A DNA stretch of 19,533 bases from a bacterium (GCA_050125095.1 JASFEA010000051.1:1-19533), one strand, 5' to 3'. Numbered from the stretch's first letter, positions 3,827 through 17,425 are shown. Program-made: numbers and translations. The notes: generated by a model not told the origin, from the sequence alone.

Positions 3827-3834
3827 ATATAGTC

Positions 3835-3912: not shown

Positions 3913-3960
3913 ATGCCCTCCTAATTCATTTAGAATCAAGGCGCTGCTCTATCCCGCAAG

Positions 3961-3976
3961 TGGCACCATCATTGCT
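3961..3976 (+). promoter_or_regulatory. Sigma-54 (-24/-12) promoter for the GalT-like gene
   Basis: TGGCAC-catca-TTGCT matches TGGCAC-N5-TTGCW exactly and lies 25 nt upstream of ATG 4001. An RBS-like agaggggg precedes the ATG. An IHF-like AATCAAggcgCTG (one mismatch) lies at 3934-3946. Confidence 0.8.
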
Positions 3977-4000
3977 TAATCCCATGGTAGAGGGGGCGTT

Positions 4001-4993
4001 ATGGCCGAATTGCGGAGACATCCCATACTCGGGGAATGGGTCGTCATCTGTCCCGAGAGAGAAGACTATCTCTCGGAGAGATGCCAGTCTCCATGCATCT
4101 ACTGCTCGGGAAACGAGAACCGCCTCGGCGTCGAAATCTATGCCGGCGAGCCGATATCAGGCAGCGGGGACGGCGACGGCCGGATACGGGTATTCGCGGG
4201 CTCGCCGCCCCTCTTCAGGATCGAGGGCGGGCTCGGAAAGCGCGCGGTCGGCATGTGCGATTGCATGCAGAGTATCGGCGCGCATGAGGTCGTTATCGAA
4301 TCCCCGTTGCATGATAAAGACATGGAGTCCTTGGACGACCGGACGCTTTGCGCACTATTCGACGTCCTCCGCCTGCGCTCCGCGGACCTCGCCCAGGACA
4401 AGAGATTCCGTCACATTACCATATTCAGACTCGACGCCTGCGATGATTCAGGGAACCGGGTGCATCCGGTATGGGACATAGTCGCCACGCCGTTCATCCC
4501 TAGAGCGATCAAAGATGAGCTCCAAGGCGCAAAGCAGTATTTCCTTCACAAGGAACGCTGCGCATTCTGTGACTACATACGCCAAGAAAAGGCCGCCGAA
4601 GAGAGAGTCATCATCCAAGATCCGCACGCAATCGCCGTCCTGCCGTATGCAGCCCGGTTCCCTTTTGAAATATGGCTGATGCCGCTCAGGCACTCACCGG
4701 ACTTCGGTGCCGCGGGCGGAGACGAAAGCCTCAGTATCGCCCGCGCCCTCAAGAGACTGATCGGCGCCTATAAGCGGCTCGAGCATTACAGGGGTTACAT
4801 ACTCTCGATTCACACGGCTCCGGTAAGGCGTCTGGGGCAGGGCAAGTGGGAGACCATCGACCAGGACTTTCACTGGCATGTTGAGCTCCGGCCCCGGCTG
4901 AACGGGGTTGACGGCATAACCGAGTCAGTCGGGTTTCATCTCAACCCGGTACCGTCCGAAGAGGCGGCGCGCATTATGAGGCAATACCTGTAA
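4001..4993 (+). CDS. GalT (galactose-1-phosphate uridylyltransferase / HIT-fold) homologue, catalytically degenerate
   Basis: MAELRRHPILGEWV N-terminus, CIYCSGNE, GAHEVVIESPLH, RCAFCD, PYAARFPFEIWLMP, FHWHVELRP and GFHLNPVPSEEAA are GalT-family-like. The HPHxQ catalytic motif reads HPVWD. Confidence 0.85.
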   Translation: MAELRRHPILGEWVVICPEREDYLSERCQSPCIYCSGNENRLGVEIYAGEPISGSGDGDGRIRVFAGSPPLFRIEGGLGKRAVGMCDCMQSIGAHEVVIESPLHDKDMESLDDRTLCALFDVLRLRSADLAQDKRFRHITIFRLDACDDSGNRVHPVWDIVATPFIPRAIKDELQGAKQYFLHKERCAFCDYIRQEKAAEERVIIQDPHAIAVLPYAARFPFEIWLMPLRHSPDFGAAGGDESLSIARALKRLIGAYKRLEHYRGYILSIHTAPVRRLGQGKWETIDQDFHWHVELRPRLNGVDGITESVGFHLNPVPSEEAARIMRQYL

Positions 4994-5001
4994 TGAGAAG
5001 A

Positions 5002-5023
5002 GGGCGGTCCGGCCGGACCGCCC
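5002..5023. terminator. GC-rich hairpin between convergent genes; probable terminator
   Basis: gggcggtccggccggaccgccc is a perfect 22-bp palindrome. On the - strand it is followed by a pyrimidine-rich tail (tcttctc). Confidence 0.6.
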
Positions 5024-5054
5024 GCGGTATGCTGCTTGAGCCGTTCCCAGGCTC

Positions 5055-7778
5055 CTATCTTAAGAGCACCATCTTACGAGTAAGCACTTCGGTGTCCGCG
5101 ACCAGCCGATAATAGTAGATGCCCGACGCCACCTTCCGGCCGCGGTTGTCGGCGCCGTCCCAGGTGATCTCATGCGCGCCGGCGTCCATCTCGCCGTCAG
5201 CGAGCGTGACTATCTCCCGGCCGCGCACGTCGTAAACGCTCATCTCGACCTTTGCGCCGCGCGGCAGGCTGAACGCGATTCGGGTTGCCGGGCCGAACGG
5301 GTTGGGCGAGTTCTGCATGAGTCGCACCCGCTCGACGGCGATCTCTCCGGCACCGGCCGACGGGTTCCAGGGCTCGTCGAAGATGTTCCTCAATATGTAC
5401 TCGCAGTTGGCCCGCATGCTCGCATGGTCGTACCTGTAAGGCCGGCCCGAGATGAAGATGAACTGCGCCCCGTCGCCGCGCTGGTCGCCGCCGCCCGGCG
5501 GGTCGTTCCAGACGCCAAGTCCCCGCACTTCCGGAAACATGTTGTACTGCGCAAAGAGAAGCGTGCTGTTACCCGTCACGGACGCAGTGTCGAATACGGC
5601 GTTGTAGGACTGTGTTCCCAGCCGGGGCATGTCGACAAGCCCCGTGTATTCGCTCGTAGCCCTGCGCGTCGTGTTCTCGCGGTTCTCCGCCCACTCGGTT
5701 CCAAGGCGGCTGCGCAGCGCTTCATAGACGAAGTCCTGGCCCATTCTCGTCATGAGAAGCAGATTGCCGCCGGCGTTCAGATAGCCCACTATGGGGGTCT
5801 CGTACCACATGTCGAGGTCGCCGTTGTAATTATTGCCCAGCCATACGACGGCGGAGAACTGCTTTATCGTGTCCGCCGGGACAGGGCCCGTTCCGAGAGG
5901 CGCCGGCAGGGAGGAAGGGTACCCGCCGGCGGGCCCCGTAGAGAACACGTCCCAGAAGCTTATGGGCAGCGTTCCCCAGAAAATGCTGTCGGCATAGGCA
6001 TCGGTTATCTCGGTCCCGTAGGTGTCCCAGTGCACTCCGTTTACGAGCAGAATCCCCCGGTCGAATGTGGCGTCCGTGATCTCCTCGGAGATCATCCTCA
6101 AGATCCACTCGTCTTTGTCTATCTCGAGGGCGATGGGCTCGTCGTCCACGTTCAGAATGAAATTCTGCACCGCCAGCGAATCCTCAACGACCAGCGTGGT
6201 GTCGCCGGCCGTCGTGGTCACCGTGACCTGTATGGGCATGGTGAATACGTGGTTGGTCTGCAGCTGCTCGATGGTGAGGTTTATGTCATAACCGGTCAGG
6301 GCACCCGGGGCGTAGTCCCAGCCCACATGGTAGAACGGGAATCCTTCCTCGTACACCCACTGGTGGAAGAAGGCGTCGAAGTCGCGTCCGGCGACGCTCT
6401 CGCAGATGTCCCGGAACTGCTCGGTGGTACAGGAGCTGTACTGGTATTCACTCGAGTAATATGTCCGCAATATGTCGAAGAACGTCGAGTCTCCGACGAT
6501 GCCGCGAAGCATGTGGGGTATCCACGAGGCCTTGTTGTAAGTGAGGTCGCCATCGAAGATGCGGTTCCAGTCCGATAGATCGGGCACGTATATTGTCCCT
6601 GCGCCATAGTACTTGGCGTATTCCATCTGGTTCTTGTACTCGGCCCATCCGTAGGTATGCTCCGCGTACAGGGCCTCGCTGTATACCGCGAAGCCCTCAT
6701 TCAGCCAGATGTGATGGAAGTCGTTGCAGGTTATCATGTCGCCCCACCACATATGGGCGAGCTCGTGGACGATGAGGTACTCGCTGTACCCGCCGAGGCT
6801 GGTTATGGTCTGATGCTCCATGCCGCCGCCCCACGTGAATTCGGCGTGACCGTATTTCTCCTCGAGGAATGGGTACTCGCCGTAGAGCGAAGCGAAAAGG
6901 TCGATCATGTAGGGGACCTTGCCGTAATTCTCCTGCACGGCGTCATAGTGATCCGGGAATACGTAGTACCGGCACTCCATCGAGTCGGTCGGCGAGTAGT
7001 TGTAGTAGTTCGAGAAGATGGTGTAAGGGTGTATGGCCACGGAGACCAGGTAGGTGGCTATGGGGTACTGCTCATGCCACTTGTAGGTCATGGTCGTGCC
7101 GTTGTCCACCGTATCCCGCAGGTTGCCGTTCGAGGCGACGATGAGCGCCTCCGGGACAGTTACCCAGATATCTGCCGAATCGGCTTTGTCATGGGAGTAG
7201 TCCTTGCAGGGCCACCATGTGCGGGCGCCGAAGGGCTCGCTCAGACTCCAGATCATGTGACTGCCGCCGTAAGAATCGAAGTCAAAGGCGCCGGCCGATG
7301 CGTCCGGCGTACCGCTGTAAGTGATGTCCAGCGTGAAGGACTCGCCCGTGGAATAAGACCGGTCAAGGTCTACGCTCAGGATGTCGCCGGCATGGCTGAA
7401 TGTGGCGGCGATTCCGCCCGAGAGCACGGCCGAGACCGTCATATTGTCGTAGAGGTCGACGTCCGCGGTCGTCAGCGGCCCCGTGACCACCTCTGCCACC
7501 ATGCGCACCGTGCCCGATACGGTTTGTGCCGTGGGGTCTACGGCTATGTCGAGCCAGTAGTAAGTCGCGTCATAGTAATCCTGATTCGTCGTCGGCGTGC
7601 TCTCGAGAATCGGGAGCCGCGCGTAGAAACGCGCCTTGGCCTCGGCGATTTCATGGGATATGTCCCCGGGGCCTTTGGGCTCAGGCGCCGCGAGCACACA
7701 TGCTGAAAGCGAGGTGACTATAAGTGCAAGGCCTGCCGCAGATACTACTGTCCGTACCAGCGCATCACGTCCGGGCAT
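5055..7778 (-). CDS. Secreted M1-family zinc aminopeptidase with C-terminal FlgD-Ig / T9SS-like sorting domain
   Basis: N-terminal hydrophobic signal; ARTWWPC; GGMEH (GAMEN-like); HELAHMWWG...WLNEGFA (HExxH-18-E); catalytic Tyr in TYNKA; C-terminal QNSPNPF...YDVRGR...WDG...VASGIYYY...KMVLLR. RBS aaggag upstream of the start. Confidence 0.92.
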   Translation of the reverse strand: MPGRDALVRTVVSAAGLALIVTSLSACVLAAPEPKGPGDISHEIAEAKARFYARLPILESTPTTNQDYYDATYYWLDIAVDPTAQTVSGTVRMVAEVVTGPLTTADVDLYDNMTVSAVLSGGIAATFSHAGDILSVDLDRSYSTGESFTLDITYSGTPDASAGAFDFDSYGGSHMIWSLSEPFGARTWWPCKDYSHDKADSADIWVTVPEALIVASNGNLRDTVDNGTTMTYKWHEQYPIATYLVSVAIHPYTIFSNYYNYSPTDSMECRYYVFPDHYDAVQENYGKVPYMIDLFASLYGEYPFLEEKYGHAEFTWGGGMEHQTITSLGGYSEYLIVHELAHMWWGDMITCNDFHHIWLNEGFAVYSEALYAEHTYGWAEYKNQMEYAKYYGAGTIYVPDLSDWNRIFDGDLTYNKASWIPHMLRGIVGDSTFFDILRTYYSSEYQYSSCTTEQFRDICESVAGRDFDAFFHQWVYEEGFPFYHVGWDYAPGALTGYDINLTIEQLQTNHVFTMPIQVTVTTTAGDTTLVVEDSLAVQNFILNVDDEPIALEIDKDEWILRMISEEITDATFDRGILLVNGVHWDTYGTEITDAYADSIFWGTLPISFWDVFSTGPAGGYPSSLPAPLGTGPVPADTIKQFSAVVWLGNNYNGDLDMWYETPIVGYLNAGGNLLLMTRMGQDFVYEALRSRLGTEWAENRENTTRRATSEYTGLVDMPRLGTQSYNAVFDTASVTGNSTLLFAQYNMFPEVRGLGVWNDPPGGGDQRGDGAQFIFISGRPYRYDHASMRANCEYILRNIFDEPWNPSAGAGEIAVERVRLMQNSPNPFGPATRIAFSLPRGAKVEMSVYDVRGREIVTLADGEMDAGAHEITWDGADNRGRKVASGIYYYRLVADTEVLTRKMVLLR

Positions 7779-7858
7779 GTTCCGCTCCTTTTCTGAATTC
7801 GATGATACGTCGACACCAACACATGAAACAGGCGGCCCTTATGCGCCGCCTCCTGTTT

Positions 7859-7887
7859 ATTATAGCACAATGGCGGTGTGAGTGCAA
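7859..7887 (-). promoter_or_regulatory. Sigma-70 promoter for the M1 peptidase
   Basis: On the - strand: TTGCAC, a 17-nt spacer, then TATAAT with an extended -10 TG. A 5'-leader hairpin follows immediately (7826-7858). Confidence 0.75.
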
Positions 7888-8270
7888 CGCCGCCGGGTGT
7901 CGCCTATGTGAACGTCAGTGTCGCGGTTCGTGGACAACGCGTCTCGACCGGCATCGGCCCGGTTCCGGGGCGTTTGGTTGACGGATTGCGGCCATGCCCT
8001 AACTCGAAAGCCGGCAAGCGCTTGTGATATTGCCTGAGACCAGGTTGTTACGCTCGCCCCCCCGACCATGGCGGCATGGGAAATGCATATATAGAGGGGC
8101 GGTAAAGGGAAGGCAGTGAATACCACTGCTTGTGCAGCGCTCCTCATCATGGTTGGTGGGTCACTGGGAGCCGGCGCGGCTTGGGGTCCGGGCGGGAATC
8201 GGGCCGCGGCGCGCCGGCTGACGGCCCCGGCAGGCGGCTGCATGATTAGCTTCTACCGGCCCTCAGGATG

Positions 8271-8279
8271 TGATATAAT
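8271..8279 (+). promoter_or_regulatory. Extended -10 promoter element upstream of the PAP2 gene
   Basis: TGaTATAAT is present; the -35 box is weak (TTCTAC, 17-nt spacer). Confidence 0.5.
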
Positions 8280-8317
8280 CAATGCCGCATGCGAAGGCCA
8301 TAACCGAAAGAGAGAGT

Positions 8318-9166
8318 GTGAGAATTCCCCTGGCAGTTCTTATCATCATCACGGTTGCATGCCTGATCGCGCCCCCGGCCCGGCCGGGGGAGTTGTTTCC
8401 TCTCAATCGCAGTGAAAACCCGCATGACCTCAGTCTCGGCCTGGATTACTTCAAAGGGTATCTGTCGGACGCGGGAGCCATAGTGGCATCACCGCTGTCA
8501 TGGCGCGGCGAGGAGTGGCTCAAATTTTCGGCTGTCGTGGCAGTCACCTTCGTGATTTCAAGCGAAGAAGACGATGTGCAGTCGTGGGTGCAGAAAAGCC
8601 GCAACGACGATACCGACATGGTGGCGCAATACACCGGGCCGGCCGGCAGCGGGAAATACGTTCTCCCGGCCCTGGTCGGACTGTATGGATATGGGCGCAT
8701 CGCCGGGAGGGACAGGGCGGAACGCACTGCGCTTCTCGGCATGGAGAGCGTTATCCTGTCGGGATTTTTTACAAATGCTGTCAAGTATCTCACTCACAAG
8801 CACAGGCCCGGTCCCGCTTATGGAAATGACGTCTCGTGGAACGGGCCCGGTCTCTCGCATGCCGACCTGTCCTTCCCTTCGGGCCACTCCACCTGCAGCT
8901 TCGCGGTGGCCACGGTGGTGGCCCTGGAATACGGCGACAATTCACTAGTGCCGCCCCTGGCCTATTGCGCCGCGACGCTGGCGGCCCTGTCGAGAGTGAA
9001 TGACAACGCGCACTGGATGTCCGACATCATCCTGGGGTCAGCCATCGGCCATTTTACTGCGAGGGCGATTGTGTCGAGACACGGCGGCGGCCCCGCCAGC
9101 CGCGTGAGCCTTGTTCCGGCTGCAAGAAGCGGAGGCATGAGCCTGGCGCTTTGCCTGGAGTTCTGA
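8318..9166 (+). CDS. PAP2-family (type 2 phosphatidic acid phosphatase-like) membrane protein with N-terminal signal
   Basis: C1 KYLTHKHRP, C2 SFPSGHS, C3 SRVNDNAHWMSDI. GTG 8318 is preferred over ATG 8282 because of the purine-rich RBS and because the -10 box ends at 8279. Confidence 0.88.
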   Translation: MRIPLAVLIIITVACLIAPPARPGELFPLNRSENPHDLSLGLDYFKGYLSDAGAIVASPLSWRGEEWLKFSAVVAVTFVISSEEDDVQSWVQKSRNDDTDMVAQYTGPAGSGKYVLPALVGLYGYGRIAGRDRAERTALLGMESVILSGFFTNAVKYLTHKHRPGPAYGNDVSWNGPGLSHADLSFPSGHSTCSFAVATVVALEYGDNSLVPPLAYCAATLAALSRVNDNAHWMSDIILGSAIGHFTARAIVSRHGGGPASRVSLVPAARSGGMSLALCLEF

Positions 9167-9200
9167 GAGCCAGCCGCCGGGTCGATCCCGTTTTTCCGGC

Positions 9201-9229
9201 TTGACCAATCCTGATTTCCCCGCTATCTT
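9201..9229 (+). promoter_or_regulatory. Sigma-70 promoter for asnA
   Basis: TTGACC, 17-nt spacer, TATCTT. Confidence 0.55.
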
Positions 9230-9375
9230 ATTTGCGGTTTTGCCGTCCTACGGCCCCGGGATTCCCCCGGGATGCACCCAGGATTCGCAACTGGTCGCGG
9301 TTGCGGTTTAGGCATGACGTTATTTTGTCCACCGGCCCGAAGGGCCGGTATCCGGACCCATCAGGAGGTAATGGA

Positions 9376-10515
9376 ATGGCAGAGAAGACAGGCAAAGAAG
9401 CTGACCTCGCCGGACCCGGCATTGGCAGCTACGAGGAGGTCGAGAAGATCCTCCCCAACGATTACGAACCCCTGCTTCCCCCCAAGCAGAGGATGCAGGC
9501 GCTTTTCGCGGTGAAGAGTTACATCGAAGAGAACATGGCCAAGGAGCTTAACCTCCAGATGGTGCAGGTTCCGCTTATCGTCGATCGTCTGAGCGGTGTC
9601 AACGACTACCTCGACCGCGACGGCTCGAGAACGCCCATCGAGTTCCACATCTCGAACGACCACGGAAAAAACCCCATCGACGCGCAGGTAGTGCAGGCGG
9701 CCACCAAGTGGAAGAGAGTCGCCCTCAAGCAGTTCGATTGCAAGCCGGGCGAGGGCATCAACACCGATATGAAAGCCGTACGCAAGGACTACTTCCTCGA
9801 CCATGATCACTCCTCGTATGTCGACCAGTGGGACTGGGAGAAAGTCATAACGCCTGAGGACCGCAATCTTGATTACCTCAAGGACACGGTGAGGAAGATC
9901 TGGAAGGTCCTCTACGGCGCCGGCAAGCACGCGCAGGAGATGTTCCCCGAGCTTAAGAGCTCCAAGTATCCCGACATTCCTGAGGAGCTCAAGTTCCTCC
10001 ACGCAGAGGAGATCCTCGCGGAGTTTCCCGACCTTCCGCGCAAGCAGCGGGAGACGCAGATCATCCAGAAGTACCCGGCCATTTTCATCATCGGCATCGG
10101 CTGGACCCTCGAGGACGGCTATCCGCATGAGATGCGCGCGGCCGACTACGACGACTGGGTCACCGAGACCGTCAAGAAAGACGGCAAGATGATGCATGGC
10201 CTCAACGGCGACATCCTGGTCTGGAACCCGGTGACCAAGCGCCGCCATGAGCTCACCTCCATGGGCATCAGGGTCACCAAGGACACCCTCAAGGTCCAGC
10301 TCAAGATGACGGGTCAGGAGGACTTCCTCAATCTGCCCTACCACAAGGCGATCCTGAATGATGAGATTCCACTCTCGATAGGCGGCGGCATCGGCCAGTC
10401 AAGGACTTACATGTATCTTCTCCGCACCGCGCATCTCGGTGAAGTGAGCGTCACGGTGTGGCCGAAGAAACTCAAGGAGATTTGCGCGGCGCGCAATATA
10501 CACGTTCTAGAGTAG
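9376..10515 (+). CDS. asnA: Aspartate--ammonia ligase (asparagine synthetase A)
   Basis: SGVNDYLD, VVQAATKWKR, GEGINTDMKAVRKD, HSSYVDQWDWEK, RAADYDDW, GLNGDILVWN, ELTSMGIRV, PLSIGGGIGQSR, HLGEV. The RBS aggagg precedes ATG 9376; the ORF-track start at 9232 is too early. Confidence 0.95.
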   Translation: MAEKTGKEADLAGPGIGSYEEVEKILPNDYEPLLPPKQRMQALFAVKSYIEENMAKELNLQMVQVPLIVDRLSGVNDYLDRDGSRTPIEFHISNDHGKNPIDAQVVQAATKWKRVALKQFDCKPGEGINTDMKAVRKDYFLDHDHSSYVDQWDWEKVITPEDRNLDYLKDTVRKIWKVLYGAGKHAQEMFPELKSSKYPDIPEELKFLHAEEILAEFPDLPRKQRETQIIQKYPAIFIIGIGWTLEDGYPHEMRAADYDDWVTETVKKDGKMMHGLNGDILVWNPVTKRRHELTSMGIRVTKDTLKVQLKMTGQEDFLNLPYHKAILNDEIPLSIGGGIGQSRTYMYLLRTAHLGEVSVTVWPKKLKEICAARNIHVLE

Positions 10516-10545
10516 AGGCCGGGAGTAACATCATCGGTTTCCAGC

Positions 10546-10578
10546 GCAGGCCCTCCGAAAGGAGGGCTTGCTCTTTTT
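10546..10578 (+). terminator. Rho-independent terminator of asnA
   Basis: Stem gcaggccctcc / ggagggcttgc with a GAAA tetraloop, followed by tcttttt. Confidence 0.88.
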
Positions 10579-10667
10579 ACGCCATTTCGCCTATTGTGTT
10601 CCTGTCTTCGTGTTCTAATCCAGGTGAGCTACGAGGTCTGGCTGCAAGCAGCAATACGGAGTTGCAA

Positions 10668-10687
10668 CATCGTGTATATACACGATG
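10668..10687. promoter_or_regulatory. Perfect 20-bp palindrome, candidate operator
   Basis: CATCGTGTATATACACGATG is its own reverse complement and lies about 90 nt upstream of the RDD gene. Confidence 0.5.
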
Positions 10688-10778
10688 GATGTTGGACTGC
10701 TCTTAATTTGTTGTGGTTGGCCGGAACAGGTTCATCCGTCGCTTTCAGCCACGATCTGTGCCAGACAGGGGGGCTCTC

Positions 10779-11570
10779 ATGGCACTCAAGTTCAGGTGCT
10801 CGAATTGTGGCGAGGTGGTGATCGTTAGGTATCTCAAGCAGGGAGAGACGGCTGAGTGCAAGGCCTGCGGCAACAGGGAGCCTGTGCCCGACTGCGCTGA
10901 AGAGGCAACTGAAGTTGAACTGGCCGAGTCAACAGCCGCCGCAGATCCGAGGATCGAAGCCGACCCGGAGGATCTCAAGTATGTCGGCGACCCGTTTGAT
11001 GACAGAGCCCGCCGCTACCTTGCTCCGCTGTGGAAGCGCCTGCTGGGCTACGTCCTGGATCGTCTTATTTTCGCAGTACCTGGGTTCATTATGCTTCTCC
11101 CGGCTATAAAGAGGCTTGCAGACGACGGGGCCGGGGAGGCCGCCCTGCGAATGCTCTTGCCATTCATGCCGGAATTCTGGATTGTACAGCTCCTTTACTT
11201 GGGCGTACTGCTTATCCAGGCTGTACTTCTGGTGGAGAGGGGCCAGACGATTGGGAAAATGATCCTGCGCACCAGAATCGTCACTCTGCAAGACAAACAC
11301 CCGGCGTGGTACAGGCTACTTATTGTGCGGCCTGTTCTGCCGGTAGTTGCGACATATCGGCCCGACCTTATATGGCCCGGAGAGGCCTGGAGCATGGTTG
11401 TGCGGTACTGCCTGAGCGCGTTGCTCCTGATCGACGCCCTGGCGATCTTCGGGTCCGAGAGAAGGACGGTTCACGACCGGCTCGCCGGAACTCGCGTTAT
11501 CGACATCGGTCTCTTGCGAAAGGCACCAGGCGGGGGTAGAATCTCCGCGGATCTCAAGGGACGGTCTTGA
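10779..11570 (+). CDS. RDD-family membrane protein with N-terminal zinc ribbon
   Basis: CSNC...CKAC ribbon, acidic linker, then LAPLWKRLLGYVLD, GQTIGKMILRTRIV, RRTVHDRLAGTRVI. ATG 10779 follows a G-rich RBS. Confidence 0.85.
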   Translation: MALKFRCSNCGEVVIVRYLKQGETAECKACGNREPVPDCAEEATEVELAESTAAADPRIEADPEDLKYVGDPFDDRARRYLAPLWKRLLGYVLDRLIFAVPGFIMLLPAIKRLADDGAGEAALRMLLPFMPEFWIVQLLYLGVLLIQAVLLVERGQTIGKMILRTRIVTLQDKHPAWYRLLIVRPVLPVVATYRPDLIWPGEAWSMVVRYCLSALLLIDALAIFGSERRTVHDRLAGTRVIDIGLLRKAPGGGRISADLKGRS

Positions 11571-11963: not shown

Positions 11964-12021
11964 ACTGTGCATTTCAAGACCTGACCCCATGGGCTGACTG
12001 TGCATTCTAAGACCTGACCCC
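11964..12021. repeat. Two 25-bp direct repeats (period 33 bp)
   Basis: actgtgcatttcaagacctgacccc (11964-11988) and actgtgcattctaagacctgacccc (11997-12021), 23/25 identical. Confidence 0.85.
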
Positions 12022-12076
12022 TTCTACTGGCTCCTGCCAGATATTATAAGATTCGCCCAATATCCCCTAATATTGC

Positions 12077-12135: not shown

Positions 12136-12636
12136 ATGGCGGAACTATCCGGAATGACCAGTGAGTTCTCAGAATCGGTGGCCGTGGTGACGGTCAAGGC
12201 CGGAGACAGGGTCAACGCGATGACTGCAGCATGGGCGATCCCGGTTTCGCAGCGGCCCGCCCTGGTGGTGGTTCACATTGCGCCCCAACGATATACGCAT
12301 GACCTGATAATAGAGGCCAAGGAGTTCGGTCTCAGCATACTCGCCGATGACCAGATGGAGGTTTCGCAGCACGCGGGCACCGTGTCGGGCCGCAAGGTCG
12401 ACAAGTTCGAAGGCGGAGTCCTTAAGGCAAAGGCGCCGGCCGTGACTTCGACCCCGGTGCTCCAAGGTTGCGCCGCCACCATGGAGTGCAAGCTCGAAAA
12501 GGCGATCGCAATGGGCGACCACACCATTTTCGTGGGAAGGGTAGTCGCACTCGAGAGAGATGAAGAGAAGAAACCCCTGGTGCTTCACCGGGGGACATAC
12601 TATAAGCTCACCGAGAGCGTGGGGAAGTATTACTAG
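12136..12636 (+). CDS. Flavin reductase-like (flavoredoxin/RutF-type) FMN-binding protein
   Basis: NAMTAAW, VSQRPALV, RYTHDLI, EFGLSIL, GTVSGRKVDKF, MECKL, GDHTIFVGRV, PLVLH. Confidence 0.9.
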   Translation: MAELSGMTSEFSESVAVVTVKAGDRVNAMTAAWAIPVSQRPALVVVHIAPQRYTHDLIIEAKEFGLSILADDQMEVSQHAGTVSGRKVDKFEGGVLKAKAPAVTSTPVLQGCAATMECKLEKAIAMGDHTIFVGRVVALERDEEKKPLVLHRGTYYKLTESVGKYY

Positions 12637-12648
12637 CGGAGATCAAGG

Positions 12649-13734
12649 ATGAGAACTATCGCCCTTTCCAACCAGAAGGGCGGCTGCGGTAAGACCACAA
12701 CGGCCATAAACCTCTCGGCCTGCCTCGCCTATAAGGGAAAGCGGGTACTTCTTATCGACCTCGACCCGCAGGCTCACGCCACCATGGGAGTCGGCGTCAA
12801 GGTGGAAGACCTGATGCGGAGTATGTACGAGGTGATGCTGGAGGGCGCCGGCATTGAGGAGATCACACGGGAAGTCAGGCCGCTCATGGACATAGCCCCA
12901 GCCGCCGTGGTCCTGGGCGCCGCCGAGCAGAGACTCGCGGGAGTGGACGGTCGCGAGAACAGGCTCTTGAACGCCCTCGGGACTATCCAGAAGCCCTATG
13001 ACTACGTCATCGTGGACTGCCCGCCCAGTATCGGGCTTCTGACTTTCAACGCGCTCCGCGCCTGCAACGAGGCCATAATCCCGATAGAGGCGAGCTTTTT
13101 CTCGCTCTGGGGAGTGGGGCGGCTGCTCGACATGATCGAACTTATAAAGGAAGAGCTCTCGCATGAGTTGAGATACAAAGCTCTCTGCACGATATACGAC
13201 GGCCGGTCCAAGTTCTCGGCCGAGATAGCCGACGACGTGTTCAGCCATTTCGAGGACCGCGTCTATGAAACCATAATTCACACCAACGTGAAGCTCCGGG
13301 AAGCTGCGAGCTATGGTATGCCCATCACGGAGTACTCGCGGCGTTCGCGGGGTTATCGCGAGTACCTCAGGCTGGCCAATGAGGTGCTTCGTGAAGAGGT
13401 GGCGGTCAAGGTGGAAGAGGCCGTGCAGACGTCCGTGGAACGGCCGTTGAAGGAGATATACGGTCCGGTACCCGTGGCGGGCGGCGTGCTGTTCAGAATC
13501 AACGCACCGGGCGCGCATTCGGTCAGCCTGATAGGCGATTTTAACGGCTGGGACGAACCTGTTGACCTTAACGACGATGACGGCGACGGCGTGTGGATAG
13601 CCATAGCGCGGCTCGACCCGGGCACTTATGAGTACAAGTTCATTGTCGACGGCGACTGGCAGACCGACCCGACGAACCCGGCCGACGTGGATGACAGGCA
13701 CGGGGGCAGAAACTCGGTCGTGGTGGTGAATTAG
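12649..13734 (+). CDS. ParA/Soj-family ATPase fused to a C-terminal CBM48 / AMPK-beta-type glycogen-binding domain
   Basis: Deviant Walker A NQKGGCGKTT, DLDPQAHAT, Walker B IVDCPPSIG, YDGR, NVKLREA. From about 13486: APGAHSVSLIGDFNGW...GVW...LDPGTYEYKFIVDGDWQTDPTNP...GGRNSVV. Confidence 0.9.
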   Translation: MRTIALSNQKGGCGKTTTAINLSACLAYKGKRVLLIDLDPQAHATMGVGVKVEDLMRSMYEVMLEGAGIEEITREVRPLMDIAPAAVVLGAAEQRLAGVDGRENRLLNALGTIQKPYDYVIVDCPPSIGLLTFNALRACNEAIIPIEASFFSLWGVGRLLDMIELIKEELSHELRYKALCTIYDGRSKFSAEIADDVFSHFEDRVYETIIHTNVKLREAASYGMPITEYSRRSRGYREYLRLANEVLREEVAVKVEEAVQTSVERPLKEIYGPVPVAGGVLFRINAPGAHSVSLIGDFNGWDEPVDLNDDDGDGVWIAIARLDPGTYEYKFIVDGDWQTDPTNPADVDDRHGGRNSVVVVN

Positions 13735-13735
13735 T

Positions 13736-14674
13736 TTGAATGAAGAACCGGGAGAGAGACGCGGCCCAAGACGCAAACTCGGACGCGGACTTAAGGACGT
13801 ATCGCATATATTCCTCTCGGGAGCGGAGCCCGGCGAAAGTTTCTCCGAGCCGGCGGCCGGCCCCGACCCGTTCGAAGACGCTCATCCCGCGCCCGCGACC
13901 TGGCTTCCGGACGCAACCTATATAAGCATAACCTCCGGCGAGAGGGTAAAGGGCAAGTCGATGTTCTCGGCCAACCTAGCCTTCTCCTTGAGAGCCAGAG
14001 GCTACCGGGTGACGCTGGTCAACGCCGACTCCGACGAGCCCGGCCTGCTCGACCTGACCGGGTGCAGACAGGGCGAGGTACTCGACGGCTCGCTTGTTAC
14101 CAATGAGGCCTTCGGCGAGCTGCCCGTAGTGACGATTTACGGCGGAAAGCGCAACCCGGGCGAGACGCGGCTCGATGTCACCGAGCCCCTGGCGGCCGCC
14201 GGGAGGGAGGCCAGGCTCGTGGTCTCGGACACCTCGCCGCTGGCTGACACCAGCTACGGCATGTGGCGAATCGCAAGCCTCGTGGTCGTCCTCACGGAGC
14301 CCTCCATAGACTCCATGCGTTCCTCTTATGTGGTCATTAAGCGCATACACTCGGCGGCCCCCGGTACGAGGATCGGTCTCGTCGTGAACAGCGCGACGAG
14401 CCACGCCGAGGGAGAGCAGTGCTTCAGAAAAATATCCGGTGTCTCCAGGGATTTTCTTAAGATAAACCTAAGGAATTATGGTATAATCATGCGCGATCAG
14501 GCAGCCAGGCAGGCTGGTGAGAAGAGAGTGCCTTTGCTGGGGGCGTTCCCCGGGTCGAAGGCATCAGAATGTGTGGAATCGGTCGCGCGGCTCATACTCA
14601 TGGATGAGTCCGCAATTGCCAGAAGGCGAACGGAGGTGAGACCTGAGGAGTGCGCATTGAGAAGAGGAGCATAG
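13736..14674 (+). CDS. Degenerate FlhG/FleN/MinD-like P-loop protein with ParB-like LGRGL N-terminal peptide
   Basis: TTG start 1 nt after the ParA stop. N-terminal RRKLGRGLKDV; ITSGERVKGKSMFSANLA; VTLVNAD; VSDTSP; VVLTEPS; GLVVNS; FlhG-like C-terminal half (GIIMRDQ...PLLGAFPGSKASECVESVARLI). Confidence 0.75.
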   Translation: MNEEPGERRGPRRKLGRGLKDVSHIFLSGAEPGESFSEPAAGPDPFEDAHPAPATWLPDATYISITSGERVKGKSMFSANLAFSLRARGYRVTLVNADSDEPGLLDLTGCRQGEVLDGSLVTNEAFGELPVVTIYGGKRNPGETRLDVTEPLAAAGREARLVVSDTSPLADTSYGMWRIASLVVVLTEPSIDSMRSSYVVIKRIHSAAPGTRIGLVVNSATSHAEGEQCFRKISGVSRDFLKINLRNYGIIMRDQAARQAGEKRVPLLGAFPGSKASECVESVARLILMDESAIARRRTEVRPEECALRRGA

Positions 14675-15450
14675 ACAGCGGCGAGGAGCTCAAGAGCCTC
14701 ACCCGGGAAGCCCTTACGGGCGAGATAGAAGACCTGGTTTTCATAGAAGACCTCCCGGCCATGGGCGAGCCCATGGAGATCGGTTTTCTGGCCGGCGACA
14801 GCAAGGGCAGAGTTTTTATAGTCGCCGCGGGCGACGGCTCCGGGGACACTCTGGTACCGCTCTATGCCAGGCATCTGGAGTGGATGAAGTCGACGCTGTC
14901 CACCCTGGTGCAGAGGCATCCCAAGTTCGACTGGAGCGGTGAGCCGGGATGCATCATGCTGGCGTCTTCATTCAGCAGTCACACCCTTCTGCTCGCGTCG
15001 ATGCTCTCGGTGACGCCGAAGAGGGCATATACTCTTAAATGCCTTGGTATCGGCGCCGAAAAGGGCCTGTACATCGAGGAGCTCGAACTGCCTGAAGTCA
15101 GGCTCAAGGCCGAATACGCGAAGCCGGAAGTCAGTCTGCTTTCGGAGACGGTGGACAAGATTCTGGGTGTTGCCGACGGGCTTTCCGTTACTGCGTCGTT
15201 CGGTTACATGAGCAGCTCTCTGGACTGGGTGCCCGTCGCGAACCTCAACCGGAAGCGCGGCAAGATCTGGATCGAATCCGGTCCTGGGATCTGGTCCATC
15301 AAGCGCGTTGCCGACGAGAAGTCTCTGGAAGCCGTCATGGATAGAGTCAAGGATTCCTACGACGAGGCTCTCAAGAAGAAAGGCCAGCCACGGGATTCGG
15401 ACAGTGAGAACCTTTCGGAAGCGGAACGCAAGAGTCTCAGCATGGACTAG
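14650..15450 (+). CDS. Hypothetical protein; N-terminal half resembles a degenerate PD-(D/E)xK (NucS/EndoMS-like) fold
   Basis: GTG start overlaps the upstream gene by 25 nt and codon usage is host-like. The segment EIGFLAGDSKGRVFIV resembles IDxLAxDxxGxxVIIExK without the catalytic residues. Confidence 0.65.
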   Translation: MRIEKRSIDSGEELKSLTREALTGEIEDLVFIEDLPAMGEPMEIGFLAGDSKGRVFIVAAGDGSGDTLVPLYARHLEWMKSTLSTLVQRHPKFDWSGEPGCIMLASSFSSHTLLLASMLSVTPKRAYTLKCLGIGAEKGLYIEELELPEVRLKAEYAKPEVSLLSETVDKILGVADGLSVTASFGYMSSSLDWVPVANLNRKRGKIWIESGPGIWSIKRVADEKSLEAVMDRVKDSYDEALKKKGQPRDSDSENLSEAERKSLSMD

Positions 15451-15504: not shown

Positions 15505-16371
15505 ATGAGGACACTCCGCTGGTTTGAAGGCGCGCTGGTTTTTATCGTGTCGTATATCGTCTCATCGGTCGTTATCCTGCCGCTGATCCCCTTTTTGTCG
15601 CTGAGGAGCGTGACCGCAATCTCGGTCGTCGTGCTCGTGGGGATCGCGTATCTGTGGACCCGCCGGCTTACAGGCGACGTCCCGGGCTATGTCGGTATGC
15701 ATGCGGTTTCGCCCGGGGTCCTGGCCCTCACGGCCATCGGCAGCTTCGCCGTCATGATCCCGGTGATGAGCCTGCAGGCCGTCGTGCTGGAGCGCTTCAG
15801 GGCCCCTCCCGAGGTTCTGCATGCCCTTGAGGATCTTATCCGCGCGGAAAACCCGCTTCAGTTCGCCTACGCCATCCTGGTGGCGGCCGCAGGCGCGTCC
15901 ATAAGCGAGGAGTTCGTCTTCAGAGGCATACTGCAGAACTCGCTGTCGGGTAGGGTCGGCCCGTGGAGGGCCCTTGTACTGGCAACCATCGTCTTCGGAC
16001 TTCTCCACACGCTGTGGCGCTTCCCGGCCGCTTTCATACTCGGGCTGTTTCTGGGCTTCCTTTACCTGAGAACGGGTTCGCTCATCCCCGGGCTCCTGTC
16101 CCATTTCATCACAAACGTCTCTTCAATCGTGCTCTTCAATGTGGCCGAGCATTCTGCATCGGGCATAATACCCGTGTGGATGGAACAGGACAGGCCCGCG
16201 CCCGCCTATCTGGTGGCCCTGTCGCTGTCTGTTTTCATAGTCGTCCTGGTCGCTCTCTGGCGCGCAACCGGTGAAGAGGCGGATTCGTACCCGCCCGGTC
16301 GCCGCGCCGGAGGCTCGGCGGCCGGTGACGGCGTGATTCATCATGAGGAGTCCGGACATGACCTCGCGTGA
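15505..16371 (+). CDS. CPBP-family (CAAX/Rce1-like, Abi) intramembrane metalloprotease
   Basis: Multiple transmembrane segments; ISEEFVFRG, FGLLH, LRTGSL, HFITN motifs. Confidence 0.9.
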   Translation: MRTLRWFEGALVFIVSYIVSSVVILPLIPFLSLRSVTAISVVVLVGIAYLWTRRLTGDVPGYVGMHAVSPGVLALTAIGSFAVMIPVMSLQAVVLERFRAPPEVLHALEDLIRAENPLQFAYAILVAAAGASISEEFVFRGILQNSLSGRVGPWRALVLATIVFGLLHTLWRFPAAFILGLFLGFLYLRTGSLIPGLLSHFITNVSSIVLFNVAEHSASGIIPVWMEQDRPAPAYLVALSLSVFIVVLVALWRATGEEADSYPPGRRAGGSAAGDGVIHHEESGHDLA

Positions 16372-17425
16372 GAGGGTCGGCATCGCCCTGGACCGGGGAG
16401 TCCCGGACCGCGTGCCCATTCACGACGGCTACTGGGACGAGGCCGTGCAAAGATGGCGCGGCGAAGGCATGCCCGAGGCCGCGGCCCGCGACCGCGACTC
16501 GATATGGGACTACTTCGACATGGAAATCAGGCAGATACCCATAGACCCGTCTTTCATGTTCGAAGAGAAGGTGATAGCCGACGATGAGAGATATATCCTC
16601 AAACGGGTGAGCGACGGCGGCGTCTATAAGTACATTAAAGGCTCGACCGCGACTCCGGGCCTGGTCGAGTTCCCGCTCAAGGGGCGGAGGGAATGGCAGG
16701 ACCTCAAGGAGAGATTGAGGCCCTCCGCCGACAGGCTGCCTGCGGACCTCCGGGCCAGGTACCGCAAATACAGGGAGGACGGGCGCTTCGTCGTCATCGT
16801 CATGCACAATCCGTATGAGGCCACCTGGTCCAAGTTCGGGGTCACCAATCTGCTGGAGAGCATGAAGCTGGATCCCGAGCTCGTGCGCGAGGTCTTCGCC
16901 GCGGTCACCGACATGAACCTGGCCATGTGCGAAGAGATCCTGGGCGCCGGCTATGAGGTGGACGGCGGCTGGATCTGGGGCGATATAGCATATAATAAAG
17001 GAACGCTTTTCTCTATCCGGATGTACGAGGACCTACTCCAGCCCTTCAATAAGCGGCTGGCCGGTTTCTTCCGCGAGCGCGGCCTCCCGGTTGTCTACCA
17101 TACCGACGGCGACGTCCGAACGGTGATCCCCCTGCTGATCGAGGCGGGAATGACATGCTTGCAGCCGCTGGAGTCCAAGGCCAACATGGATCTTGTCGAG
17201 CTCAAGCGCGAGTACGGCGACAGGCTCGCCTTCATGGGCGGCATAGACTTCGAAGCCATATCGAAGGGCGAAGCCTCCATGATAGAAGAGATCCGGAGCA
17301 AGGTGGGCCGGGGCAAGGAGGGGGGCGGCTATATCTACCACTCGGATCACTCTGTGCCTCCCAAGGTCAGCCTCGACCAGTACAGGCGCGTCCTGGACCT
17401 CGTCCTCGAGTACGGCCGCTACTGA
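16358..17425 (+). CDS. Uroporphyrinogen decarboxylase-like (UroD/MtaA-CmuA superfamily) protein
   Basis: MTSRERV...PDRVP, GDIAY, YHTDGDV, LQPLE, AFMGGID, GGGYIYHSDHSVPP. The RBS gaggag favours ATG 16358 over 16343. Confidence 0.88.
   Translation: MTSRERVGIALDRGVPDRVPIHDGYWDEAVQRWRGEGMPEAAARDRDSIWDYFDMEIRQIPIDPSFMFEEKVIADDERYILKRVSDGGVYKYIKGSTATPGLVEFPLKGRREWQDLKERLRPSADRLPADLRARYRKYREDGRFVVIVMHNPYEATWSKFGVTNLLESMKLDPELVREVFAAVTDMNLAMCEEILGAGYEVDGGWIWGDIAYNKGTLFSIRMYEDLLQPFNKRLAGFFRERGLPVVYHTDGDVRTVIPLLIEAGMTCLQPLESKANMDLVELKREYGDRLAFMGGIDFEAISKGEASMIEEIRSKVGRGKEGGGYIYHSDHSVPPKVSLDQYRRVLDLVLEYGRY

What the first reader, a model, noticed from the sequence alone, without database searches (positions are those of the whole stretch)
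12649..15450. Candidate three-gene ParA system for positioning glycogen/alpha-glucan cargo
Seen: three tightly coupled genes (1-nt gap, then 25-nt overlap) encoding an intact ParA ATPase fused to a CBM48, a degenerate FlhG/MinD-like protein with an LGRGL N-terminal peptide, and a probable dead nuclease-fold protein. I see no parB, parS, flagellar, chemotaxis or microcompartment gene in the window. Known: ParA/MinD ATPases position non-DNA cargo through a partner that stimulates the ATPase (McdAB for carboxysomes, PpfA/ParC for chemoreceptor arrays). Inference: this is a self-contained positioning or segregation system whose cargo is glycogen granules or another alpha-glucan-containing body. 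I know of no characterised system like this, but could not check the literature.
Basis: partly seen in the sequence, partly recalled or inferred. Interest (0 to 1): 0.88.

Follow-up and report, generated by a model that had tools for sequence, protein, structure and literature searches.

The report
Glycogen-binding ParA ATPase with two partners
Three adjacent genes encode a chromosome-partition-type ATPase permanently fused to a glycogen-binding module plus two degenerate partner proteins, an undescribed and widespread gene set that may organise glycogen stores inside bacterial cells, though no experiment has tested this.

Summary
Gene 1 (12649-13734) is an intact ParA/Soj ATPase fused to a CBM48. 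Gene 2 (13736-14674) has a disordered tail with a ParB-like LGRGL peptide on a FlhG/MinD-fold domain that lacks the signature lysine. Gene 3 (14650-15450) is a NucS-type nuclease fold without the catalytic E-x-K.

The trio is syntenic wherever contigs allow in the window's order: 13 of 16 loci, with the other 3 cut by contig ends. Variants recur in other phyla. In one soil lineage the peptide sits directly on the nuclease-like domain, and 51 of 52 such loci have a ParA just upstream (50 with CBM48).

On the ATPase domain alone, all ParA-CBM48 proteins form one clade apart from canonical ParA. ATPase, DNA-binding and glucan-binding residues are almost invariant in 116 family members.

It is not ParABS (ParB occurs in 16 of 18 genomes of the phylum), not FlhG (decoupled from flagella) and not a listed defence system.

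The glycogen link rests on the CBM48 alone. None of 100 external loci had a glycogen-enzyme gene nearby, and two loci lack the CBM.

Five literature searches found no description. The scan had noted this family before on other DNA.

The parts
12649..13734 (+). P0001, ParA/Soj-type ATPase fused to CBM48 (361 aa)
   Evidence: The closest solved relative is M. xanthus ParA 8ray (E 1.3e-58).
12649..13413 (+). ATPase domain (aa 1-255): deviant Walker A K10GGCGK15T, D37/D39, Walker B D123, and basic K215 at the DNA-binding position
   Evidence: K10, K15, D37, D39 and D123 are each kept in 116 of 116 family members; position 215 is K or R in 113 of 116.
13474..13731 (+). CBM48 / AMPK-beta-type glycogen-binding module (aa 276-361)
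   Evidence: W301 116/116, K or R at 330 116/116, W337 116/116, N355 114/116. These residues align with W, K, W, N of the AMPK beta CBM.
13736..14674 (+). P0002, peptide-bearing pseudo-ATPase of FlhG/MinD fold (312 aa)
13769..13822 (+). ParB-like ParA-activating peptide, aa 12-29 (RKLGRGLKDVSHIFLSGA), on a disordered tail
   Evidence: L15 G16 R17 G18 L19 S23 H24 F26 S28 G29 are invariant in 13/13; pLDDT is under 50 for residues 1-54. The motif was compared with the L11/R13/L15/L18/I19 motif of M. xanthus ParB (PMC12462528).
13913..14635 (+). MinD/FlhG-fold domain (aa 60-300). G68xxxxG73K74[S/T] is kept, but the signature lysine and the GG of the deviant Walker A are lost.
14650..15450 (+). P0003, two-domain protein (266 aa) that overlaps P0002 by 25 nt
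14650..15099 (+). Inactivated NucS-type PD-(D/E)XK fold (aa 1-150)
   Evidence: 2vld_B Z 9.2; the family's ExK is AAG here. Atlas neighbours partly carry NucS_C.
15127..15384 (+). Small alpha/beta C-terminal domain (aa 160-245), YjbR/DUF419/frataxin-like
   Evidence: 2fki Z 7.3, 2a1v Z 7.0. These are middling scores and may reflect only a common arrangement.
15409..15447 (+). Conserved acidic C-terminal tail (L255 S256 x A258 E259 x K261 x L263)
   Evidence: invariant in 14/14. Its role is unknown.
12136..12636 (+). Flavin-reductase-like gene 12 nt upstream, co-oriented and syntenic in the order; possibly the first gene of the operon
   Evidence: A promoter-like site at 12077-12104 matches 10 of 12 positions. 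No terminator-like site lies on the + strand between 11400 and 16000.

Best explanation
This is a dedicated ParA-type ATPase module that links cytoplasmic alpha-glucan (glycogen) to the nucleoid.

Shown by sequence and fold:
- P0001 has every catalytic motif of a chromosomal-type ParA, a basic residue at the non-specific DNA-binding position, and a C-terminal CBM48 with its glucan-contact residues.
- P0002 carries a ParB-like activating peptide on a disordered tail attached to a MinD/FlhG-fold domain that has lost the dimer-sandwich lysine.
- P0003 is a catalytically dead NucS-type fold. In another lineage this fold carries the peptide itself.

Inferred:
- ATP-bound P0001 dimers bind DNA and, through two CBM48s, bind glycogen particles, tethering them to the nucleoid.
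- The peptide of the P0002/P0003 partner docks in the ParB pocket of the dimer and triggers ATP hydrolysis and release.
- Repeated cycles spread or partition glycogen, or glycogen-bound enzymes, along the nucleoid, so that daughter cells inherit stores.

Unlike ParABS or McdAB, the cargo-binding module sits on the ATPase.
For: Module and partner logic:
- The trio is syntenic in 13 of 16 loci of the order; the other 3 are cut by contig ends.
- P0002-like and P0003-like genes follow a ParA in L006 and in L014 (Nitrospirota).
- A variant of the peptide (core SHxFLS) opens the ORF just downstream of ParA-CBM48 in 9 of 19 external genome loci. This was read by eye.
- Partner-side test: loci were chosen only by the peptide-plus-nuclease-like fusion. 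Of 52 loci with 1250 nt or more upstream, 51 have a ParA ATPase upstream on the same strand and 50 have a CBM48 there. The 80 loci fetched form 35 clusters at 90% identity.
- The peptide matches the L-x-R-x-L-x-x-hydrophobic spacing of the ParB motif.
- The pocket residues mapped from M. xanthus ParA are kept: Y60, I128, L130, F133, L165, L170. There are family-specific changes: Q94 in 116 of 116 in place of V116, and a hydrophobic residue in place of D110. These would fit a private partner.

Glucan and DNA binding:
- W301, K/R330, W337 and N355 are kept in 114 to 116 of 116 members, and K/R215 (M. xanthus R238, needed for DNA binding) in 113 of 116.
- All ParA-CBM48 rows form one clade on the ATPase domain alone (SH-aLRT 99), apart from canonical ParA.

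Carriers make glycogen.

Weak sign of transcription: contigs of a metatranscriptome run cover 13372-13550, 14544-14736 (across the gene 2/3 overlap) and 15004-15153 with no differences. DNA carry-over in that library is not excluded.
Against: - No binding, ATPase activity or localisation has been measured.
- The glycogen link rests on one domain. CBM48 modules also act as sensors, as in AMPK beta, and occur in this genome on probable surface proteins.
- 0 of 100 external loci held a glgA, glgC, glgB, GH13, GH57 or phosphorylase-like gene within 4-6 kb.
- Two loci of the same system have a ParA without a CBM (L014; L169).
- Neither P0002 nor P0003 has a recognisable glucan-binding part, so how the partner would find the cargo is open.
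- P0003 is acidic (pI 5.1) and its role is unknown.
- Synteny inside the order extends to at least 4 flanking genes, so within-order conservation is weak proof of linkage on its own.
- The residue mapping to M. xanthus ParA is my own, from one pairwise alignment.
Confidence: 0.45

Rival explanations
1. Glycogen is a signal or a sink, not the cargo. The module positions or regulates something else that P0002/P0003 define. The CBM48 only tunes or sequesters the ATPase according to glycogen load, as the CBM of AMPK beta does for the kinase.
For: - The CBM is on the ATPase rather than on the adaptor.
- CBM-less ParAs occur within the same system: L014 and L169, 2 of about 72 loci looked at.
- L014 nests inside the CBM48 clade, which points to loss of the CBM with the system retained.
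- The own genome's orphan paralogue (C54:8330-9400) has lost W337 and N355.
- No glycogen genes lie nearby in 0 of 100 loci.
- PilZ-fused relatives of P0003 (P0151, P0156, P0160) hint at regulatory use of the fold.
Against: - The glucan-contact residues are nearly invariant across 116 members. That argues for real and important glucan binding, although a sensor would need it too.
- No other cargo candidate is encoded.
- P0002 and P0003 show no known cargo-binding domain.
Confidence: 0.25
2. It is a DNA segregation system that stands in for or supplements ParABS. P0003 (nuclease fold) would act as the DNA-binding centromere protein and P0002 as its activating adaptor.
For: - The closest solved relatives of P0001 are chromosomal ParAs.
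- The own assembly has no ParB_N match.
- NucS-type folds bind DNA (established knowledge of the family).
- Some distant relatives of P0003 keep an intact D...ExK motif.
Against: - ParB_N is present in 16 of 18 genomes of the phylum. It is missing only in two assemblies of the window's genus (91% and 83% complete), and the third genome of that genus has it.
- A canonical 250-aa ParA lies beside ParB.
- P0003 is acidic, with an N-domain pI of 4.9, and has no HTH.
- No parS-like site or locus-specific repeat was found. The only tandem repeat nearby is a genome-wide element.
- This reading does not explain the CBM48.
Confidence: 0.07
3. P0002 is the flagellar regulator FlhG, as JGI's automatic name says, and the cluster belongs to flagellar control.
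For: - The best fold matches are FlhG and FleN.
- The source label 'flagellar biosynthesis protein FlhG' is on many relatives.
- The own genome has flagellar genes.
Against: - FlhA and flagellin are both absent from 7 genomes of the order, and all 7 keep P0003. P0002 was seen in 5 of them; in the other two (L095, L096) the contig ends inside or before it.
- Both flagellar genes are present in the 2 genomes of family f3, which lack the trio.
- The signature lysine is missing.
- The gene always follows ParA-CBM48, not flhF.
Confidence: 0.02
4. It is an ATPase-plus-nuclease anti-phage defence system.
For: Fold matches of P0003 include defence nucleases: Shedu SduA, Hachiman HamA, Card1, Can2 and NucC.
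Against: - P0002 and P0003 have no PADLOC family. P0001 has only P-loop-level matches, the best at E 4.7e-6 over 37 residues.
- The catalytic residues are lost.
- The cluster sits in a stable core-gene neighbourhood throughout the order.
- The ParA-type ATPase carries a CBM48.
Confidence: 0.03

Closest known systems
Chromosomal ParABS (Soj/ParA with Spo0J/ParB), e.g. M. xanthus ParA-ParB (PDB 8RAY; PMC12462528)
   Same: - The ATPase is of the same subfamily (E 1.3e-58 to 8ray) with all catalytic motifs and a basic residue at the R238 DNA-binding position.
- The partner has an N-terminal L-G-R-G-L peptide on a flexible tail.
- The hydrophobic pocket residues are largely kept.
   Different: - The partner has no ParB_N, HTH or CTPase domain, and no parS was found.
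- The partner is split into a pseudo-ATPase and a dead nuclease fold.
- The ATPase carries a CBM48.
- Pocket residue V116 is an invariant Q, D110 is hydrophobic, and motif-2 N64 is H43 here.
- The module coexists with a canonical ParAB pair in the phylum.
McdAB carboxysome positioning, and other ParA/MinD systems for non-DNA cargo (PomXYZ, ParC/PpfA, MipZ)
   Same: A ParA-family ATPase with a private activating partner, used for something other than DNA. P0001 matches McdA 6noo only at E 2.2e-12.
   Different: In those systems the adaptor, not the ATPase, binds the cargo. There is no sequence relation between P0002 or P0003 and McdB. The comparison with PomXYZ, ParC and MipZ is from recall and was not tested here.
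AMPK beta, SEX4 and LSF1 CBM48 glycogen/starch-binding modules
   Same: Pfam AMPK1_CBM scores above its cut-off. The best PDB matches are LSF1 8j5d (E 1.5e-10) and AMPK beta (about 3e-8). W, K, W and N are aligned.
   Different: Here the module is fused to a P-loop positioning ATPase rather than a kinase scaffold or a phosphatase.
FlhG/FleN/MinD
   Same: The fold of P0002 residues 60-300 (4rz3 E 3.4e-16, TM-score 0.61 to 0.77).
   Different: - The signature lysine is lost and the GG of the deviant Walker A is replaced.
- P0002 carries a ParB-type peptide at its N-terminus.
- Its presence is not linked to flagella.
NucS/EndoMS C-terminal nuclease domain (PD-(D/E)XK)
   Same: The fold of P0003 residues 10-132 (2vld_B Z 9.2). 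Atlas neighbour clusters partly carry NucS_C.
   Different: - The catalytic E and K are replaced (AAG), and the first acidic residue is E43.
- P0003 has no NucS N-terminal DNA-binding domain.
- It has an added small C-terminal domain and a conserved acidic tail.

Membership tests
ParA/Soj subfamily of ParA/MinD ATPases (P0001) | Deviant Walker A KGGxGK[ST] with the signature lysine | tested here: met
   K10GGCGK15T16. K10 and K15 are each kept in 116/116 family members.
ParA/Soj subfamily of ParA/MinD ATPases (P0001) | Motif 2 aspartates and the Walker B aspartate | tested here: met
   D37, D39 (aligned to the D60 position of 8ray) and D123 are kept in 116/116. Motif-2 N64 is H43 here.
ParA/Soj subfamily of ParA/MinD ATPases (P0001) | Basic residue for non-specific DNA binding (M. 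xanthus R238) | tested here: met
   K215 is aligned to R238, and the position is K or R in 113/116. Actual DNA binding was not measured.
ParABS partition system | Partner is a ParB with ParB_N/CTPase and HTH domains acting on parS | tested here: not met
   P0002 and P0003 have no ParB_N match. No parS-like site was found. A genuine ParB is found elsewhere in 16 of 18 genomes of the phylum.
ParABS partition system | Partner carries an N-terminal ParA-binding motif: hydrophobic residues around a central R or K | tested here: met
   L15-G-R17-G-L19-x-x-V22, invariant in 13/13. S23 stands where ParB has I19. This is sequence only; binding was not shown.
CBM48 / AMPK-beta glycogen-binding module | Profile match above the curated cut-off | tested here: met
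   PF16561 at 55.3 bits (cut-off 26.8); PF02922 at 33.5 bits (cut-off 22.4).
CBM48 / AMPK-beta glycogen-binding module | Glucan-contact residues (two Trp, Lys, Asn) | tested here: met
   W301, K330, W337 and N355 align to W, K, W, N of AMPK beta2 and are kept in 114 to 116 of 116. Which residues contact sugar is recalled, not read here.
CBM48 / AMPK-beta glycogen-binding module | Binds glycogen or malto-oligosaccharide | not testable with these tools
   Needs a pull-down or ITC.
FlhG/MinD (P0002) | MinD-like fold | tested here: met
   Foldseek 4rz3 E 3.4e-16, also FleN and MinD.
FlhG/MinD (P0002) | Deviant Walker A with the signature lysine (ATP-sandwich dimer) | tested here: not met
   The motif is S67-G-E-R-V-K-G73-K74-S. 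The signature position is E in 9 of 13 orthologues, and only one (L093) has K there. GxxxxGK[ST] is kept.
FlhG/MinD (P0002) | Co-occurrence with flagellar genes (FlhG) | tested here: not met
   7 genomes without FlhA or flagellin all keep P0003, and P0002 was seen in 5 of them (the other two contigs are cut). 2 flagellate genomes lack the trio.
NucS-type PD-(D/E)XK nuclease (P0003) | Restriction-endonuclease-like fold | tested here: met
   2vld_B Z 9.2, PaqCI 8.0, FokI 7.3. Foldseek gives 5gkj_B probability 0.98 but E 0.013.
NucS-type PD-(D/E)XK nuclease (P0003) | Catalytic D ... (D/E)xK | tested here: not met
   E43 ... A-A-G in the window. Ten of the 28 aligned sequences keep E-L-K, among them P0129, P0133 and P0135.
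Known anti-phage defence systems (PADLOC) | Match to a defence-system protein model | tested here: not met
   None for P0002 or P0003. P0001 has only short P-loop matches.

The most novel reading that the evidence does not exclude
This would be the first dedicated machinery for active placement and inheritance of glycogen in bacteria. It would be a ParA system with an inverted layout: the ATPase itself holds the cargo through a built-in CBM48 while riding the nucleoid, and a new two-part partner (a pseudo-ATPase carrying a borrowed ParB peptide, plus a dead nuclease fold) resets it.
Probability: 0.35. Interest if true: 0.85.

Novelty: new variant of a known kind. Interest (0 to 1): 0.74.

Why it matters
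ParA/MinD ATPases are known to place chromosomes, plasmids, carboxysomes, chemoreceptor arrays and division sites. No system is known for glycogen, the commonest bacterial carbon store. A recent E. coli study reports that glycogen accumulation shifts nucleoids and division sites (PMC12706056; I saw only the search listing and the start of the abstract).

A ParA with its own glucan-binding module, nearly invariant contact residues and a private activating partner gives a concrete, testable candidate. It would also show a new layout for the family, in which the motor rather than the adaptor binds the cargo. It further shows how a ParB-type activating peptide can be moved onto unrelated scaffolds: a MinD-fold domain here, and a nuclease fold in a soil lineage.

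Tried and rejected
- **Complex prediction.** P0002 (alignment A2) with P0003 (A3) scored 0.16 against a mark of 0.32, so there is no verdict either way. Whether the two proteins bind stays open.
- **Foldseek on P0003.** Against the PDB it gave nothing at E 0.001 or better. The fold call rests on VIA-align.
- **Replacement of ParABS.** Rejected after ParB_N was found in 16 of 18 genomes of the phylum.
- **Local centromere or operator.** The tandem 33-nt repeat at 11964-12029 was considered. It was rejected because its core occurs 214 times across the genome.
- **Glycogen genes as neighbours.** tblastn with the own genome's GlgA, two GlgC-like proteins, GlgB-like, GH13-CBM, two GH57 and two phosphorylase-like proteins found nothing of 150 aa or more at E 1e-10 in 100 external loci. 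Divergent enzymes could have been missed.
- **Strict LG[RK]GL search.** Looking just downstream of ParA found the motif only in L003, L004 and, doubtfully, L021. The looser SHxFLS core was then read by eye.
- **Omnitrophota and Planctomycetia loci.** L005, L008, L010, L011, L013, L015, L016, L017 and L022 showed no peptide-bearing partner downstream.
- **Window-wide RNA scans.** Rfam and tRNA scans found nothing.
- **RNA run.** It holds only 4 short contigs over the trio. The uncovered parts say nothing.
- **Literature.** Searches found no paper on a ParA fused to CBM48 or on a ParA-type system for glycogen. Subscription-only papers and supplementary files were not searched.
- **Tree.** Row L078 sits on a very long branch, probably because I cut the frame badly. 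It was left in.
Full report
**1. What is there**

Three co-oriented ORFs lie at 12649-13734, 13736-14674 (TTG start) and 14650-15450 (GTG start). The spacing is a 1-nt gap and then a 25-nt overlap. Orthologous loci show the same starts and the same overlap.

P0001 (361 aa) matches AAA_31 (E 3.2e-54), AMPK1_CBM (E 7.9e-15) and CBM_48 (E 5.4e-8). Its closest solved relatives are chromosomal ParAs: M. xanthus 8ray at E 1.3e-58, and T. thermophilus Soj at 1.4e-48.

P0002 (312 aa) only just passes CbiA, at 29.6 bits. In its AF2 model residues 1-54 are disordered and residues 60-300 are a MinD-type fold. The best matches are FlhG 4rz3 (E 3.4e-16), FleN and MinD.

P0003 (266 aa) has no Pfam or NCBIfam family. 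Its model (pLDDT 83.5) has two domains. The N-domain matches the NucS nuclease domain (2vld_B, Z 9.2, rmsd 2.8, 104 residues) and many restriction-type nucleases. The small C-domain has middling matches to YjbR, DUF419 and frataxin (Z about 7).

The other ORFs of the window encode a BcrAD-type activase, a GalT-like protein, an M1 peptidase, PAP2, AsnA, an RDD protein, a flavin reductase, an Rce1-like protease, a URO-D-like protein and GHL15. None is a ParB, flagellar, chemotaxis or microcompartment protein.

**2. Residue-level state**

P0001 keeps K10GGCGK15T, D37, D39 and D123. Using the D60A position of 8ray as an anchor, I mapped the residues named in PMC12462528 onto P0001. In that paper I read the abstract, sections 8 and 14, and passages of sections 6, 10 and 13. 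The mapping is as follows:
- R238, whose R238E variant lacks non-specific DNA binding, corresponds to K215.
- Pocket residues L150, L152, L155, L187 and L192 correspond to I128, L130, F133, L165 and L170.
- Y81 corresponds to Y60.
- V116 corresponds to Q94.
- D110 corresponds to V88.
- E117 corresponds to R95.
- Motif-2 N64 corresponds to H43.

I then counted these positions in 116 full-length ParA-CBM48 cluster representatives. These are the 116 sequences of 340 aa or more among the 121 that I had (P0001 plus the 120 listed). The counts are:
- K10, K15, D37, D39, D123, E93 and Q94: 116 of 116 each.
- Position 215 is K or R in 113 of 116.
- W301: 116. K or R at 330: 116. W337: 116. N355: 114.

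W301, K330, W337 and N355 align with W, K, W, N of AMPK beta2. That these residues contact sugar is recalled from the AMPK beta1 CBM literature and was not read here.

In P0002 the stretch L15-G-R-G-L19 ... S23-H24-x-F26-x-S28-G29 is invariant in 13 of 13 orthologues. The P-loop reads S-G-E-R-V-K-G-K-S. GxxxxGK[ST] is kept, but the signature lysine and the two glycines of the deviant Walker A are gone.

In P0003 the D...ExK motif of the wider family is E43...A-A-G. Ten of the 28 aligned sequences, for example P0129, P0133 and P0135, keep E-L-K.

**3. Conservation in the window's own lineage**

The phylum has 18 species genomes in the held set. Sources label relatives' proteins 'Candidatus Eisenbacteria'.

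P0003 is found in 16 of the 18: every genome of the window's order, and 0 of 2 in the other family, f3. In 13 of the 16 loci all three genes lie in the same order. The other 3 are cut by contig ends.

Six longer loci all show flavin reductase, the trio, Rce1-like and URO-D-like in that order, so the whole neighbourhood is stable. Within-order synteny alone is therefore weak evidence for functional linkage.

The order carries three ParA types:
- the trio ParA (64-100% identical);
- an orphan ParA-CBM48 paralogue (39-44% identical; in the own genome at C54:8330-9400, with no partner genes beside it);
- a canonical ParA of about 250 aa beside ParB.

**4. Recurrence outside the lineage**

All 120 best hits to P0001 in the 5.8-billion-protein set carry PF16561. 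Full-length ParA-CBM48 genes were fetched from the following:
- MAGs named Vicinamibacterales, Omnitrophota, Myxococcota, Planctomycetota, Gemmatimonadales and Gammaproteobacteria;
- a Thiogranum MAG;
- a Kuenenia MAG.

Profiles of P0002 and P0003 hit ORFs directly downstream of the ParA in L006 (2.6e-21 and 4.3e-5) and in L014 (Nitrospirota; 8.3e-15 and 1.5e-6). The P0002 profile also hits L009, L020 and L003. Read by eye, 9 of 19 external ParA-CBM48 loci have a downstream ORF that opens with a variant of the peptide, whose most constant part is SHxFLS. The Omnitrophota and Planctomycetia loci do not.

A profile search with P0003 against 1.84 billion representatives found 64 proteins at E 0.001 or better. 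Among them are short proteins in which LGRGLxDVSHLFLS is joined directly to the nuclease-like domain (P0172, P0175, P0178, P0187), and forms with an N-terminal region that looks like PilZ, judged by eye.

I then fetched 80 metagenome loci using that fusion protein alone as the query:
- Of the 52 loci with at least 1250 nt upstream, 51 have a ParA ATPase immediately upstream on the same strand, and 50 have a CBM48 there.
- Of the 28 shorter loci, 25 show a partial upstream hit.

These loci are one lineage: 35 clusters at 90% identity, 14 at 70%, and a single cluster at 50%. This works as a Rosetta-stone argument. The peptide, the nuclease-like domain and ParA-CBM48 belong together, and the MinD-fold domain of P0002 is an optional carrier of the peptide.

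**5. Phylogeny**

I built a tree of 48 ATPase domains, using the first 255 aa only so that the CBM could not drive it. It places every ParA-CBM48 in one clade with SH-aLRT 99. That clade includes the trio, the orphan paralogue, the external loci, and L025, which is also a CBM fusion. It is separate from canonical ParAs, including those of the window's own phylum.

The CBM-less ParA of L014 falls inside this clade, which points to secondary loss of the CBM. This was a quick search without bootstraps. One row, L078, sits on a very long branch.

**6. Rivals tested**

*Replacement of ParABS.* The own assembly has no ParB_N match, but 16 of 18 genomes of the phylum do. The two without are the 91% and 83% complete assemblies of the window's genus, and the third genome of that genus has ParB.

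*FlhG.* FlhA and flagellin are each found in the same 11 of 18 genomes. All 7 genomes without them keep P0003, and P0002 was seen in 5 of these; in the other two the contig is cut. The two f3 genomes have flagella and lack the trio.

*Defence system.* P0002 and P0003 have no PADLOC family. The nuclease motif is dead and the neighbourhood is a stable core region.

*DNA-binding role for P0003.* The protein is acidic, at pI 5.1. No parS-like site was found. The only tandem repeat nearby belongs to a genome-wide family.

**7. The glycogen link**

In favour:
- The CBM48 family match and the near-invariant contact residues.
- P0001 begins directly with the ATPase motif and has no leader, so its ligand should be intracellular.
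- The own genome encodes GlgA (568 bits, over its cut-off), two tandem GlgC-like proteins (405 and 324 bits, under the 424.9 cut-off), a GlgB-like enzyme, GH57 and phosphorylase-like genes.
- The two f3 genomes that lack the trio also lack the strong GlgC-like pair. With n = 2 related genomes this is no more than a hint.

Against:
- 0 of 100 external loci carry a recognisable glycogen-enzyme gene within 4-6 kb.
- Two loci have no CBM (L014, L169).
- The CBM is on the ATPase rather than on the adaptor.

**8. Most likely mechanism**

Shown: the domain content, the motif states and the gene linkage described above.

Inferred: ATP-bound P0001 dimers bind nucleoid DNA through the K215 face and bind glycogen through two CBM48s. 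The tail peptide of the P0002/P0003 partner docks in the ParB-type pocket. The family-invariant Q94 and the hydrophobic residue at 88 would give that pocket a private specificity beside the canonical ParAB pair. Docking triggers ATP hydrolysis and release. Cycles of tethering and release would spread or partition glycogen, or enzymes bound to glycogen.

I put this reading at 0.45. The main rival, at 0.25, is that the CBM48 acts as a glycogen sensor or sink on a ParA that handles another cargo.

Contigs from one metatranscriptome run cover three short stretches of the trio without differences, one of them across the gene 2/3 overlap. DNA in that library is not excluded.

**9. Novelty**

Five full-text searches found no paper on a ParA fused to CBM48 or on a ParA-type system for glycogen. 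Subscription-only papers and supplementary files were not covered.

The scan itself has noted the same family at least eight times on other genomes. Those notes are unchecked AI readings. I used one of them as the lead to PMC12462528.

I class the finding as a new variant of a known kind: a ParA/MinD system with a new partner architecture, a built-in glucan-binding module and a candidate new cargo.

Noticed in passing
window 11964-12029: There are two tandem 33-nt copies of a repeat whose 25-nt core (ACTGTGCATTnnAAGACCTGACCCC) occurs 214 times in the 3.35-Mb genome, at up to 4 mismatches on both strands. Most copies form pairs or triplets about 30 nt apart, or inverted pairs. It looks like a REP-like dispersed intergenic element of this lineage.
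   Followed up: partly
window 5055-11570: The block M1 peptidase (minus strand, with an FlgD_ig-type C-terminal domain), PAP2, AsnA and RDD protein lies between the GalT-like gene and the flavin-reductase gene in this window only. In 4 of 6 related loci the GalT-like gene lies next to the flavin-reductase gene with none of the four block genes between, which suggests an insertion or rearrangement in this genus.
   Followed up: partly
L001 (G000:C54) 8330-9400: This is a second, orphan ParA-CBM48 paralogue (43% identical) with no partner genes beside it. Its CBM is degenerate (W337 and N355 lost) and it has T at the DNA-binding position 215. The paralogue is present in most genomes of the order.
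   Followed up: partly
L188 (G000:C176) 1797-4034: A 745-aa ORF has Pfam hits to Bactofilin, AMPK1_CBM/CBM48 and Omp85/DUF5686 in one protein, which is an odd combination.
   Followed up: no
L002 (G000:C107) 72-10778: This looks like a probable alpha-glucan utilisation locus. It holds a 1402-aa surface protein (Glucodextran_C, Big_1, FlgD_ig tail), a 767-aa CBM48 protein, a 361-aa protein made of three CBM48 repeats, and then an ABC permease.
   Followed up: no
P0151, P0156, P0160: These distant relatives of the P0003 nuclease-like domain carry an N-terminal region that looks like a PilZ domain by eye (RxxxR ... DxSxxG). They end in a basic W-L-W-[KR]-K tail. Their genomic context is not known.
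   Followed up: no
phylum genomes G001, G002, G009-G013: Seven genomes of four genera lack both FlhA and flagellin, while the other 11 genomes of the phylum have both. This points to loss of flagella within the order.
   Followed up: no
window 16343-16371: The Rce1-like gene (15505-16371) and the URO-D-like gene (16343-17425) overlap by 29 nt. Both are syntenic with the trio across the order.
   Followed up: no
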